A stretch of DNA of 15,933 bases from IMG/VR virus record IMGVR_UViG_2667527666_000007; one strand, 5' to 3'. Source of the DNA: a virus. Lineage: Duplodnaviria; Heunggongvirae; Uroviricota; Caudoviricetes. Positions 12,001-15,000 of this stretch are shown in pieces. Numbering within the stretch: the stretch's first letter is position 1; each line of letters opens with the position of its first letter. The position numbers were made by a program.

Positions 12001-15000
12001 CACCGGACGGCGCAAATATACGAGCGCCTTTATCGAAGTGCCGCGCAAAAATGCTAAATCAACGACCGCCGCGATTCTGGCTAACTGGTTTCTGATTATG
12101 GAGAACGGTCAGCAGGATATTTACACCGCAGCGGTGAGCCGTGACCAGGCGAGGATCGTATTTGATGATGCGCGTCAGATGTGCATTTTATCCCGACCGT
12201 TACGCAGGCGGGTGAATATTCAGGCGCATAAGGTGATACACCCGAAAACCAACAGCCTGTTAAAGCCGCTGGCAGCAAAAGCGGCAACTATCGAGGGCAC
12301 AAACCCCAGTCTTTCTATCGTGGACGAATACCACCTACACCCCGACAACGGCGTATATTCTGCGCTTGAACTGGGGATGGGGGCACGTCCCGAAGGGCTG
12401 TTATTTGCCATTACCACATCGGGAAGTAACGTCGTTTCAGCCTGTAAGCAGCATTATGATTATTGCTGCCAGATCCTGGACGGCGAAGAGGTTAACGAAT
12501 CGCTTTTTGTGCTGATTTACGAACTGGACGACGAAAACGAGGTTGATGATCCGGAGATGTGGATAAAGGCGAACCCTAATATCGATGTTTCCGTGGATCG
12601 TGAAAAACTGGCCTCAACCATTCAGAAAGCGCGGGGTATTCCGTCGCAATGGGTGGAGATGATGACAAAGCGATTTAATATCTGGTGTCAGGGGACTACC
12701 CCGTGGATGGGTAATGGTGCATGGGCTGAGTGTGCCGGAACGTTCACGGAGGAAGATTTACACGGTCAGGAGTGTTACGCGGGGCTGGACTTATCATCAA
12801 CCAGCGATATTTCCAGCGTGTGCTATGCCTTTCCGGTCGGTAAAACCATTATGCTGATTTCCCGTCATTATCTGCCGGAGTTCCAGCTACAGAACCCCGC
12901 CAATAAAAACCGCGCTGTCTATCGTCAGTGGGCTAAAGCAGGCTGGATACGCACAACGCCTGGCGACTGCATTGATTACGACCGGATCAGAGATGACATC
13001 ATGCAGGACGCGGAGAAATTTAATATCAGGCTGGTGGGCTTTGATACGTGGAACGCCACGCATCTCAGAACGCAATTACAGGGGGCAGGTTTTGAGGTGG
13101 AGCCGTTCCCGCAAACCTACCTCAGATTCAGTCCGGCGGCGAAATCGTTCGAAGTTTTTGTTAACCGCAGGGTGATTGTGCATCGTGGCGATCCGGTGTT
13201 GTCCTGGTCGATGAGTAACGTCGTGATGCAGAGTGACGCGAACGCCAATATCAAGCCGAACAAGAAAAAATCACCGAACAAGATAGACCCGAGCGTGGCG
13301 GCGCTGATGGCGTTTGGTACATTCCAGGCAGAGCATGAGGATTTTGCTTTTGATATAAGCGACAGCCACCGCCAGAAACTGGAAGAATTTAGCGGGGTGT
13401 AATGAGGTCAGCAGCATGACAGAAGCCGAAATAACGGGATTAATCCGCCGCGTTGCCGGAATCAGCCAGCAGGCTGACGAACAGGCCACGCAGCCGGACA
13501 GCGTGACAGCCGAAAACTATGCGCGTGTTGTTGCTGAGGTGATGCGCCGTGATGGTATAGAACTTAATGGCGTGGATATGCGCAACATACGAACCAGAGT
13601 TCTTGAGTTGCTGGCCTACCGTCGCCGCGTGGAGATGTATCGGGAGAAGGAGAAAATAACGTACCACTGGAAGAAGCCGGAGCGGTTGCGGCGGTAACTG
13701 GTTGATATTCCCGACGGCCCAAAAATGGGTGGCTACATCCCTCGCTTCTGAGGACTGTTAACAAGCTGCCTGAAAGACAGTCACAAACTACGAAATTTTC
13801 GCAGTTTAACTAATGGTCAGCTTAATCGCTAACCCGCTGATATTTTCGGAAACCTCAATTTGAGGAAGTCGTCGCGGTAACTCGCTGAACTTTAAGCAAA
13901 GCGCAAAATTGCGCTTGCTGAATAATCATTATGATTACGCAGATGATTAAGGAATGACCGAAGGCGGAAATTCGCCTGTGGTTAATGGGGGAGTTGCAGA
14001 TCTGCAACTCGACCATGAAACTACGGAAACTACCCGTAGTTTGGGTAGTAAGAGTAACACCCAGATTTTGGGGCTTACTCGTGATACCCAAATTTGGGGT
14101 ATCGGTGGCAACCATAACGACTTTCGTTACGGTTGATGCTTTTACCCCATTGGGGGAAAGGTATTACGATAATCATAACACCTACCGAACAGGTAAAGCC
14201 CACCAGCCTGATTAACGTTTAACCGGAAAAAAATCCAGGTAGGTGGAGATCCCCATATCGACAGCAACGCCCCTCATGAATTGGCGTGCTTCCCCCTGGA
14301 AAGATGACCCGCCTGTATATTTCTTGTGTCTATTTGTTCCACGTTGTTTCATACAGTGCACCGAACGGTGTAGTCAATGGTGTAGTTAATTTGCGATTTT
14401 TGGCACTTTTTGCAGTGTTAATTATTTAATTAAATCAATGCCTTATCTTAATTTGGTGATAAAAGGGCATATTTATTCATCTTTCGGCGCAGAATGCTGG
14501 CGACCAAAAATCACCTCCATCCGCGCACCGCCCAGCATGCTCTCTCCGGCGACGATTTTACCCTCATATTGCTCGGTGATTTCGCGGGCTACCGCCAGCC
14601 CTACACCTTGCCCAGGGCGTAAAGTATCAACCCGTTGACCACGGTCGAAAATGACCTCTCGCTTGCTTAATGGAATACCGGGGCCATCATCCTCGACCAC
14701 AATATAGAGATGCTCGTCGGTTTGCCTTGCAGAAATTTCGACAAACTCGAGGCAATATTTACAGGCATTATCCAGCACGTTGCCCATCACCTCGACAAAA
14801 TCGTTCTGCTCACCGACAAAGCTGATCTCTGGCGAAATATCGAGAGAGATATTGACCCCTTTGCGTTGATACACTTTGTTCAGCGCTGAGGTGAGATTGT
14901 CCAGCAGTGGGGCGACCGGATGCAGCTCGCGGCTGAGCAATGTCCCGCCGCGCATACTGGCACGATGCAGGTAGTAGCCAATTTGCTGTGAAATGCGGCT

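What the first reader, a model, noticed from the sequence alone, without database searches (positions are those of the whole stretch)
14334..14472. Right junction: element abuts the 3' end of phoQ in convergent orientation
Element genes are transcribed rightward and phoQ leftward, so the two transcription units converge within 14353-14472, which must contain attR. Insertion directly downstream of phoQ could alter phoPQ operon termination or generate antisense read-through into phoQ, coupling satellite induction to the PhoPQ regulon. Copy C of the decamer element lies here, consistent with a directionality-factor site near the att core.
Basis: partly seen in the sequence, partly recalled or inferred. 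Interest (0 to 1): 0.45.

Follow-up and report, generated by a model that had tools for sequence, protein, structure and literature searches.

The report
Satellite attachment site beside phoQ
This stretch is the right-hand attachment site (attR) of a phage satellite island inserted just after the phoQ gene, at an integration site already published for the E. coli satellite EcCICFT073, so it is real but ordinary.

Summary
Island-free E. coli, K-12 included, match the window only from base 14465. phoQ (14473-15933, minus strand, full length) ends 8 bp to the right of the last island-specific base.

The 10-bp core GGGCATATTT (14465-14474) is shared by attB, attL and attR. It overlaps two bases of the phoQ stop codon.

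This site is already known. Fillol-Salom et al. 2018 list GGACATATTT, ycfD(roxA)-phoQ, as the att core of EcCICFT073. Sakai Sp7, at the position that paper gives for the EDL933 element, sits there too. About 11% of 5,426 complete E. coli genomes have the site interrupted.

The island is a capsid-forming PICI: int, alpA, primase, then capsid through TerL.

The interval 14324-14474 is a standard heterobivalent attR arm:
- Two tandem 12-mers, GGTGTAGTYAAT, which co-vary with the integrase arm-binding hairpin across four att types. They are likely Int arm sites.
- An IHF-like match.
- The half-site GATAAAA, then the core.

The same decamer arrays lie upstream of alpA and of the capsid operon. That fits an AlpA (directionality factor and activator) operator, but this is inferred.

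Coupling to PhoPQ has no sequence support and was not testable here.

Low interest; already known.

The parts
14465..14474 (.). att core GGGCATATTT, the identity block shared by attB, attL and attR. 14465-14471 (GGGCATA) is the presumed 7-bp overlap. 14473-14474 belong to the phoQ stop codon.
   Evidence: The K-12 match starts at 14465. The roxA-side match of occupied genomes ends at L001 3010, the last base of the same 10-mer. attB, attL and attR are printed side by side. The published core for this site is GGACATATTT.
14458..14464 (+). GATAAAA, a putative core-type Int half-site (C). In a reconstructed attP it faces TTTTATC across the 7-bp GGGCATA.
   Evidence: The composite attP (window attR arm plus attL arm of L004) reads GATAAAA|GGGCATA|TTTTATC. 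The real attP of the excised cspD-type island L006 reads ATAAAT|GATAGTT|ATTTAT, the same layout. This is inference from symmetry only.
14433..14445 (+). IHF-like consensus match AATCAATGCCTTA (WATCAANNNNTTR), after an A/T-rich tract, between the arm repeats and the core.
   Evidence: It is one of 3 matches in the window, with 0.59 expected. The consensus is kept in phoQ- and tqsA-type arms despite substitutions in the N4 positions. Weak evidence.
14367..14390 (+). Tandem 12-mers GGTGTAGTCAAT GGTGTAGTTAAT, likely integrase arm-type sites.
   Evidence: They are the only exact copies in the window. The same tandem pair sits about 20 bp before the int ATG in the attL arm of relatives. The sequence co-varies with the Int N-terminal hairpin across four att types.
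14324..14353 (+). Decamer array C: TTGTGTCTAT TTGTTCCACG TTGTTTCATA, 10-bp phased. Candidate AlpA/RDF operator in the attR arm.
   Evidence: Identical in six PICI attR arms of the phoQ, tqsA and smrA types; the cspD type keeps the TTGTTC phasing with other spacers.
14109..14143 (+). Hairpin 14109-14135 (12 positions, 1 mismatch, 3-nt loop), then ATGC and TTTT. Candidate intrinsic terminator for rightward island transcription.
   Evidence: Fold of 14100-14160: -21.4 kcal/mol, z = -3.17. The block is present in Sakai/O157 relatives with one stem pair broken. It did not reach the stricter consensus scan.
13698..14323 (.). Conserved non-coding right end of the island, function unknown.
   Evidence: The alignment of five PICIs shows conserved blocks and one variably present block, 13871-14107. 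There is no Rfam family, no tRNA and no lambda-type cosN.
13416..13697 (+). Last island gene, 93 aa. It is conserved at the right end of classical and capsid-forming PICIs. Function unknown.
   Evidence: PHROG 1561, unknown function, 2.9e-56. No Pfam or NCBIfam hit. Orthologues in L003, L004 and L006.
14473..15933 (-). phoQ, intact, with stop codon TAA (TTA on the + strand, 14473-14475).
   Evidence: 100% identical to K-12 over the 236 bases compared.
1..1230 (+). Tyrosine integrase with an arm-binding N-domain. 96.6% identical to the EcCICFT073 integrase.
   Evidence: Pfam Arm-DNA-bind_3, Phage_int_M and Phage_integrase. Identities.
1596..1784 (+). alpA, the PICI master regulator (excisionase/regulator family).
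   Evidence: Pfam Phage_AlpA 1.5e-16. PHROG 'excisionase and transcriptional regulator'. Identical to the AlpA of the O157 island L004.
1273..1322 (-). Decamer array A, five units on the minus strand, between int and alpA.
   Evidence: The array is kept in CFT073, Sakai and tqsA-type relatives with diverged spacer bases.
1533..1552 (-). Two-unit decamer array 44-63 bp before the alpA start. It overlaps a promoter-like match.
   Evidence: CFT073 has an equivalent array at L018 2753-2772.
6822..6851 (+). Decamer array B, three units. It begins 16 bp after an intrinsic terminator and lies 163 bp before the capsid gene.
   Evidence: Present in the other cf-PICIs L002, L007 and L008; absent from the classical PICIs L004 and L018.

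Best explanation
The interval is attR, the right recombination junction of a roughly 14.65-kb capsid-forming PICI satellite. The island is integrated by its tyrosine integrase into the roxA(ycfD)-phoQ spacer, at the site used by EcCICFT073 and by the Sakai Sp7/EDL933 element.

The crossover lies in a 10-bp identity block, GGGCATATTT, that begins 8 bp after the phoQ stop and includes 2 bases of it. PhoQ is therefore unchanged, and roxA is moved about 14.6 kb away.

Reading leftward from the core, the arm carries:
- a core-type half-site, GATAAAA;
- an IHF-like site;
- two tandem 12-mers that bind the integrase N-terminal arm domain;
- a 10-bp-phased TTGTnY array that most likely binds AlpA as recombination directionality factor.

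Proposed mechanism. On helper-phage induction, AlpA would coat the arrays in both arms and bend them. With IHF, this would let Int bridge arm and core sites of attL and attR, so the island excises.

The same arrays upstream of alpA and, in cf-PICIs, upstream of the capsid operon would let AlpA also switch on its own gene and the late genes.

Shown here: the boundary, the core, the repeats and their conservation and co-variation. Inferred: who binds what, the 7-bp overlap, and the IHF role.
For: Boundary and core:
-.
- The published core and site are (PMC6092414, Table S1).
- Sakai Sp7 is annotated between roxA and phoQ.

PICI and cf-PICI gene content.

12-mers as Int arm sites. They occur as a tandem pair in both arms and not elsewhere in the window. 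They track the Int beta-hairpin independently of the AlpA allele:
- SVRHSTSGLL goes with GGTGTAGTYAAT (phoQ type with AlpA allele 1; cspD type with allele 2).
- SVKYLTSGKL goes with GGTGTAGTCAYT (tqsA type, allele 1).
- EIKHSKGGKL goes with TGTGTGGTCAGT (thiM type, allele 2).

Decamers:
- Spacing is exactly 10 bp, with 6 pairs against 0 in 300 shuffles.
- In up to 37 kb of relatives' DNA they are found only inside the islands, at four conserved positions.
- The TTGT phasing is kept while the spacer bases diverge.
- They are unchanged across three Int hairpin variants and across two different replication modules.

Precedent from the literature:
- RDF operators are direct repeats one helical turn apart, and Apl and Cox bind both att and promoters.
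- AlpA activates its own promoter and is needed for EcCICFT073 induction.
- AlpA is needed for EcCIEDL933 induction and transfer.
Against: - attL of this very island is outside the window, which starts at the int ATG. The flanking direct repeat is shown only in relatives.
- No binding data exist. AlpA alleles 1 and 2 share their helix-turn-helix core, so the comparison cannot prove that the decamers follow AlpA.
- The two allele-2 islands (L006, L017) have arrays only in the att arms.
- In lambda, Xis sites lie in one arm only; here the arrays are in both.
- The IHF match is a single consensus hit.
- The terminator candidate has 4 nt between stem and T-run and failed the stricter scan.
Confidence: 0.85

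Rival explanations
1. The decamer arrays are a second class of integrase arm-type sites, or sites for some other conserved island or host protein, rather than AlpA/RDF operators. The internal copies would then be fossils of module exchange.
For: The arrays sit directly next to the 12-mers in both arms, as one duplicated module. Islands L006 and L017 have them only in the att arms. The internal copy B shares extra flanking similarity with copy C, 27 of 35 nt, as a recombination scar might.
Against: They do not change when the Int arm-binding hairpin changes, whereas the 12-mers do. The internal arrays keep the TTGT phase while their spacer bases diverge between CFT073, Sakai and the window, which suggests selection rather than a scar. 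Their positions, before alpA and just after a terminator before the capsid operon, are regulatory positions.
Confidence: 0.25
2. Insertion at the phoQ 3' end changes phoPQ termination or sends antisense transcripts into phoQ on induction, coupling the satellite to the PhoPQ regulon.
For: After 8 bp the native 3' flank of phoQ is replaced by island DNA. No convincing terminator follows phoQ on the minus strand, either in K-12 or in the window; the window hairpin has z = -1.6. roxA is displaced by about 14.6 kb, so any phoQ-roxA read-through would be lost.
Against: - The coding sequence and stop codon are untouched.
- No promoter-like site is found in 13300-14800.
- A conserved hairpin with a T-run at 14109-14143 lies between the late operon and phoQ.
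- There is no PhoP box.
- The same arm is used at four other chromosomal sites, so no feature of it is specific to phoQ.
- About 11% of complete E. coli genomes, including CFT073, O157 and Nissle, have the site interrupted.
- No paper among the best-ranked results of a search for PICI, AlpA and phoQ mentioned phoQ together with PICI.
Confidence: 0.1
3. The island ends near 13700, and 13698-14472 is native chromosome or a remnant of an unrelated element.
For: The stretch has no conserved ORF and a lower G+C content, 0.43-0.49.
Against: K-12 and 4,822 genomes with an uninterrupted junction have only a 75-bp spacer with no homology to it. The stretch travels with PICIs at five att sites and is present in an excised circular PICI.
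Confidence: 0.01

Closest known systems
EcCICFT073 att site (ycfD-phoQ, core GGACATATTT; Fillol-Salom et al. 2018, PMC6092414, Table S1)
   Same: Same chromosomal spacer and same position next to the phoQ stop. The integrase is 96.6% identical and AlpA 93.5% identical. The attR arm is the same, decamers and 12-mers included.
   Different: The core here is GGGCATATTT, as in K-12 attB, against GGACATATTT. The cargo differs: EcCICFT073 is a classical 11.4-kb PICI with lambda-type cos sites, while this island carries a full HK97-like head and packaging module and no lambda cosN.
EcCIEDL933 / Sakai Sp7, the prototype capsid-forming PICI (bioRxiv 10.1101/2022.09.08.507074)
   Same: In Sakai it lies between roxA and phoQ. 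The late module has the same order, capsid, protease, portal, connectors, HNH, TerS, TerL and the 93-aa gene. The attR arm is the same.
   Different: It is not the same island. No complete genome matches the window above about 97%. The right-end non-coding region of Sp7 lacks block 13871-14107. The replication and early modules differ. The closest full-length relatives of the window, 97% identical, sit in tqsA with a 90%-identical integrase.
Phage lambda attR (P-O-B') with Int arm sites, Xis sites and IHF site (textbook knowledge)
   Same: A heterobivalent integrase; tandem arm-type repeats; a phased direct-repeat array next to them; an IHF-like site between arm and core; a short core with an inferred 7-bp overlap flanked by inverted half-sites.
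   Different: The sequences are unrelated. Here both repeat classes occur in both arms as one duplicated module. The regulator is an AlpA-family protein, not lambda Xis. None of the binding has been shown.
Dual-purpose RDFs: 186 Apl and P2 Cox (PMC7498355; PMC3936717)
   Same: Operators are direct repeats spaced 10-11 bp apart, present both at att and at promoter regions, so that excision and transcription are controlled by one small protein.
   Different: Apl and Cox repress promoters, whereas PICI AlpA is reported to be an activator. Arrays at the late operon are seen only in the cf-PICIs examined. AlpA binding to these arrays is inferred.

Membership tests
attR of a tyrosine-integrase integrative element | Homology with island-free genomes stops at a defined point next to the flanking gene. 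| tested here: met
   K-12 and other empty-site strains match only from window 14465 or 14468. The K-12 spacer has no counterpart of 13698-14464.
attR of a tyrosine-integrase integrative element | A short core identical in attB, attL and attR, that is, a direct repeat flanking the element. | tested here: inconclusive
   attB (K-12) and attR (window) share GGGCATATTT. attL carries the same 10-mer in L002, and GGACATATTT in L018, L004 and L009. attL of this very island lies outside the window, which starts at the int ATG.
attR of a tyrosine-integrase integrative element | The element encodes a tyrosine recombinase with an arm-binding domain. | tested here: met
   Pfam Arm-DNA-bind_3 5.8e-18 and Phage_integrase 1.9e-16.
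attR of a tyrosine-integrase integrative element | Arm-type repeats are present in both arms and are specific to the integrase. | tested here: met
   The tandem 12-mers occur in both arms of relatives and co-vary with the Int hairpin in four att types. Binding itself is not testable here.
attR of a tyrosine-integrase integrative element | Int-dependent excision regenerates attB and attP. | not testable with these tools
   Indirect only: a related PICI was assembled as a 10.79-kb circle with attP at the record origin.
Gram-negative PICI (Fillol-Salom 2018) | int, alpA and a primase/replicase in that order, transcribed rightward; size about 8-15 kb; no lysis or tail genes. | tested here: met
   The island is about 14.65 kb if attL lies about 180 bp before int, as in L002.
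Gram-negative PICI (Fillol-Salom 2018) | Uses a PICI-specific att site. | tested here: met
   Same site and core (one base different) as EcCICFT073 in the published table.
Gram-negative PICI (Fillol-Salom 2018) | Induced and mobilised by a helper phage through alpA. | not testable with these tools
Capsid-forming PICI (cf-PICI) | Encodes major capsid, prohead protease, portal, head-tail connectors, HNH, TerS and TerL, but no tail. | tested here: met
   Pfam hits for every one of these. No tail gene among the ORFs.
RDF operator array (lambda Xis, 186 Apl, P2 Cox type) | Direct repeats spaced one DNA helical turn apart. | tested here: met
   Exactly 10-bp spacing in arrays of 2-5 units; 6 pairs against 0 in 300 shuffles.
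RDF operator array (lambda Xis, 186 Apl, P2 Cox type) | Bound cooperatively by the element's RDF, here AlpA. | not testable with these tools
   Positional and comparative evidence only. AlpA alleles 1 and 2 share the HTH core, so co-variation is uninformative.
PhoP-regulated site (PhoP box, (T/G)GTTTA-N5-(T/G)GTTTA) | Hexamer direct repeat with 11-bp phase. | tested here: not met
   No match with up to 2 mismatches anywhere in 13698-14472. The decamers have a 10-bp phase and a different hexamer.
Intrinsic terminator separating the convergent units | G+C-rich hairpin directly followed by a T-run. | tested here: inconclusive
   None passes the consensus scan in 13700-14800. The best candidate, 14109-14143 on the + strand, has z = -3.17 but a 4-nt gap before TTTT. 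The hairpin after phoQ on the - strand is not significant (z = -1.6).

The most novel reading that the evidence does not exclude
The 10-bp-phased TTGTnY arrays are the so far undefined operator of the PICI master regulator AlpA. AlpA would then be a dual recombination-directionality factor and activator in the manner of 186 Apl or P2 Cox. The same protein filament would bend both att arms for excision, switch on alpA itself and, in capsid-forming PICIs, switch on the head and packaging operon just downstream of a terminator. As a corollary, some published PICI 'att cores', such as CGGTGTAGTTAATGGTGTAGTTAATT, would be integrase arm sites rather than crossover sites.
Probability: 0.4. Interest if true: 0.4.

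Novelty: already known. Interest (0 to 1): 0.15.

Why it matters
The practical gain is mostly annotation:
- It fixes the right end of the island to the base.
- It shows that phoQ is intact.
- It identifies the island as a capsid-forming PICI at the EcCICFT073 site.

The arm dissection gives PICI workers concrete sequences to test: 12-mers that follow the integrase hairpin, and decamers shared by the att arms, the alpA region and the capsid-operon region. These could be tested for Int and AlpA binding.

It also flags that tandem arm repeats may have been listed as 'att cores' for some PICIs.

Nothing here bears on PhoPQ signalling unless transcript mapping shows otherwise.

Tried and rejected
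- tRNA or tmRNA target at the junction: none in the window.
- Structured RNA family in 13600-14520: nothing at gathering thresholds. The only weak hit is an archaeal snoRNA model at E = 2.8, which is noise.
- PhoP-box mimicry by the decamers: no match in the att region.
- Lambda-type cos site in the right-end non-coding stretch. cosN is present in the classical PICIs CFT073 and O157, but upstream of the 93-aa gene. It is absent from the island in the window, whose only near-match lies inside phoQ.
- Coding potential of 13698-14330. The ORFs of 54-86 aa there fall in a block that Sakai and O157 relatives lack, so they are not conserved genes.
- Decamers as replication iterons. Rejected because L002 and L004 carry a RepA-type helicase instead of the D5-type primase, yet keep the arrays.
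- A wider survey of AlpA neighbourhoods. The search for related loci in genome contigs returned only 5 loci, one of them close, so it could not separate AlpA from Int as the decamer-binding protein.
- PICIs with unrelated Int and AlpA (yejM and yicC types) lack the decamers. That is expected and not discriminating.
- Source genome: no complete E. coli genome matches the window above about 97%.
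Full report
**What the window is**

All supported ORFs from 1 to 13697 are on the + strand. In order they encode:
- a tyrosine integrase with an arm-binding N-domain (1-1230);
- AlpA (1596-1784);
- a DUF4222 protein;
- a D5-type primase-helicase (3366-5198);
- SSB;
- PerC;
- an HK97-type late block: major capsid (7014-8219), prohead protease, portal, head completion protein, connector, HNH (10672-11112), TerS (11401-11757) and TerL (11741-13402);
- a 93-aa protein of unknown function (13416-13697; PHROG 1561).

There are no tail or lysis genes. 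This is the gene content of a capsid-forming PICI as described for EcCIEDL933.

The last 1461 bases are phoQ on the minus strand. It is full length (NCBIfam PhoQ equivalog, 957 bits).

**Where the island ends**

I searched 13600-14700 against 5,426 complete E. coli genomes. Every genome matches the phoQ part. Island-free strains, K-12 MG1655 among them, match only from query base 866 or 869, which is window 14465 or 14468.

In K-12, roxA (ycfD) follows phoQ on the same strand after a 75-bp spacer. The three sequences around the site are:
- K-12 attB: GAAGTAT GGGCATATTT ATTCATC.
- Window attR: GTGATAAAA GGGCATATTT ATTCATC.
- attL of the 97% relative DETEC-S792: GAAGTAT GGGCATATTT TATCAATTAG.

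The 10-bp identity block is therefore window 14465-14474. Its last two bases belong to the phoQ stop codon (TTA on the + strand, 14473-14475).

The reciprocal search used the empty K-12 junction as query. It is uninterrupted in 4,822 genomes. In the other 604 (11%), the listed examples break at the last base of the same 10-mer or 8 bases before it.

**This is a published site**

Table S1 of Fillol-Salom et al. 2018 gives 'GGACATATTT, ycfD-phoQ' as the att core of EcCICFT073, the prototype E. coli PICI. The same table gives 'ATAACAGCA, tqsA' for EcCI042.

I fetched CFT073. Its integrase is 96.6% identical to the window's and its AlpA 93.5% identical. Both junctions have the same layout.

Sakai prophage-like element Sp7 lies between roxA and phoQ. 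It is at the coordinates that the same paper lists for Sakai as the same element as in EDL933. The cf-PICI preprint names the 15.4-kb EDL933 element EcCIEDL933.

The window is not one of these islands. No complete genome matches it above about 97%. Its nearest full-length relatives are inserted in tqsA, with an integrase only 90% identical.

**Anatomy of 14324-14474**

Reading leftward from the core:

1. GATAAAA (14458-14464).
   - I joined the window's attR arm to a relative's attL arm. The reconstructed attP reads GATAAAA-GGGCATA-TTTTATC, that is, 7-bp inverted half-sites around a 7-bp spacer.
   - A real attP is available. The RefSeq 'plasmid' pZ1323HEC0475-3 is an excised circular PICI of the cspD-clpS type. 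It reads ATAAAT-GATAGTT-ATTTAT at the corresponding place.
   - I therefore take GGGCATA (14465-14471) as the likely overlap region. This is inference from symmetry.

2. AATCAATGCCTTA (14433-14445). It matches the IHF consensus WATCAANNNNTTR. The window has three matches where 0.59 are expected. The consensus positions are kept in phoQ- and tqsA-type arms.

3. GGTGTAGTCAAT GGTGTAGTTAAT (14367-14390). These are the only exact copies in the window.

4. TTGTGTCTAT TTGTTCCACG TTGTTTCATA (14324-14353).

**The 12-mers behave as integrase arm-type sites**

In relatives the same tandem pair also lies about 20 bp before the int start, in the attL arm. Across att types the 12-mer changes together with the beta-hairpin of the Int arm-binding domain, in both arms at once:

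| att type | Int hairpin | 12-mer | AlpA allele |
|---|---|---|---|
| phoQ | SVRHSTSGLLTWYF | GGTGTAGT(T/C)AAT | 1 |
| cspD (Int only 75% identical overall) | SVRHSTSGLLTWYF | GGTGTAGT(T/C)AAT | 2 |
| tqsA | SVKYLTSGKLTWYF | GGTGTAGTCA(C/T)T | 1 |
| thiM | EIKHSKGGKLTWYF | TGTGTGGTCAGT | 2 |

The cspD and thiM islands share an AlpA allele but differ in both 12-mer and Int hairpin. The 12-mer therefore follows Int, not AlpA.

**The decamers**

TTGTTY pairs exactly 10 bp apart occur six times in the window and never in 300 shuffles. With a slightly relaxed pattern the arrays are:
- 1273-1322 (-, five units);
- 1533-1552 (-, two units, 44-63 bp before alpA);
- 6822-6851 (+, three units);
- 14324-14353 (+, three units).

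A further relaxed match, 6512-6531 (-), lies in the 5' part of the 100-aa ORF frame (6468-6770) and I do not count it.

In relatives with up to 37 kb of flanking DNA, such arrays occur only inside the island. They occupy the same four places: attL arm, int-alpA spacer, upstream of the capsid operon (cf-PICIs only) and attR arm.

In the int-alpA spacer the TTGT phase is kept while the other positions differ between CFT073, Sakai and the window. That argues for selection on the repeat.

The arrays do not change with the Int hairpin. They also do not change with the replication module, D5 primase here against a RepA-type helicase in L002 and L004.

Array B begins 16 bp after a clear intrinsic terminator, in a spacer with no sigma-70-like promoter.

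Three points from the literature fit an RDF/activator reading:
- RDF operators are direct repeats one helical turn apart, and Apl and Cox bind both att and promoter regions (PMC7498355).
- AlpA activates its own promoter and is required for induction of EcCICFT073.
- AlpA is required for induction and transfer of EcCIEDL933.

I therefore think AlpA binding is the best reading, at about 0.5. The main rival is a second class of Int sites or another conserved protein, at about 0.25. The comparison cannot settle it, because the two AlpA alleles in this Int family share their DNA-binding core. I found no paper that defines an AlpA operator in PICIs.

**The PhoPQ idea**

The insertion leaves PhoQ and its stop codon intact. 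It replaces the native 3' flank after 8 bp, and it moves roxA about 14.6 kb away.

- My hairpin-plus-T-run scan found no terminator after phoQ on the minus strand in K-12.
- In the window the hairpin there is weak (z = -1.6).
- On the + strand the consensus scan finds no promoter and only a weak terminator-like site, at the end of the 93-aa gene.
- A conserved hairpin (14109-14135) followed by ATGC-TTTT folds well (z = -3.17). It could end late-operon transcripts about 320 bp before phoQ.
- There is no PhoP box.
- The whole arm is shared with sister islands at tqsA, smrA, cspD-clpS and thiM. None of it is tailored to phoQ.

Read-through effects remain possible. They are unsupported, and only transcript mapping can decide.

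**Verdict**

The finding is correct as an observation, and correct that attR and a phased repeat lie here. It describes a known integration site of a known satellite family. The functional speculation about PhoPQ has no support in the sequence. The arm-site dissection is a modest addition and remains inference.

Noticed in passing
window 14367-14390; L018 1185-1208 and 12404-12427; L006 138-161 and 10696-10719: The published 'att site core' of EcCIDI14 (CGGTGTAGTTAATGGTGTAGTTAATT, Fillol-Salom 2018 Table S1) is the tandem 12-mer pair. That pair sits in both arms of phoQ-, cspD- and smrA-type PICIs, 74 bp inside the island from the real core. It is probably an arm site mistaken for a core. The yejM-type 'core' (TTTGTAGTTATACG x2) looks similar: in ATCC 25922 a tandem TTTAGTTATACG lies 60 bp before int and again at the right end.
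   Followed up: partly
L006 (NZ_CP148328.1, whole record): A 10,790-bp RefSeq 'plasmid' (pZ1323HEC0475-3) is an excised, circular classical PICI of the cspD-clpS type. It carries int, alpA, primase, a protease-capsid fusion and the 93-aa gene. The record origin falls in attP (core ATGATAGTTAT at bases 1-11).
   Followed up: partly
L007 and L008 (tqsA) versus the window: The nearest full-length relatives of this island, 97% identical over about 14.4 kb, are inserted inside tqsA, not at phoQ. Their integrase is 90% identical, with the changes concentrated in the arm-binding and core-binding domains, and both arm 12-mers are changed to match. This looks like a recent swap or divergence of the int/att specificity on an otherwise identical island.
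   Followed up: partly
window 13698-14323: There are 626 bp of conserved non-coding DNA at the island's right end, shared by classical and capsid-forming PICIs at five att sites. It contains a perfect 16-bp palindrome GTTGCAGATCTGCAAC (13993-14008), interleaved ACTACGG/CCGTAGT and ACTACCC/GGGTAGT stems (about 14021-14050), and the palindrome CCCAAATTTGGG (14087-14098). Block 13871-14107 is missing from Sakai Sp7 and O157. It has no Rfam family, no lambda cosN and no conserved ORF.
   Followed up: partly
window 13416-13697: The 93-aa protein is always the last gene before attR in every PICI of this integrase family examined. It has no Pfam or NCBIfam family and falls in a PHROG of unknown function.
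   Followed up: partly
window 5201-5389: Repeated palindromes GGTGAACAGTT...AACTGTTCACC lie just after the primase-helicase gene. This is probably the island's replication origin.
   Followed up: no
window 6425-6448 and 6779-6806: Two nearly identical intrinsic terminators (ACAGCCGGAG-A-ATCCGG-TTTTT) bracket the 100-aa ORF between perC and the capsid operon. The late operon therefore seems to need its own activator-dependent promoter or antitermination.
   Followed up: partly
L001 2934-3008 (K-12 roxA-phoQ spacer): On the minus strand, an 11-bp stem (GTTAAGCATCC...GGATGCTTAAC) ends immediately before the roxA ATG and encloses a TATAAT. It stays with roxA on the attL side of the insertion. Its significance is unknown (fold z = -1.5).
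   Followed up: no
window 1842-2765: This 307-aa ORF has only a C-terminal match to PHROG 'transcriptional repressor' families. Relatives have several small Icd-like or hypothetical genes at this position, so the early region is mosaic.
   Followed up: no
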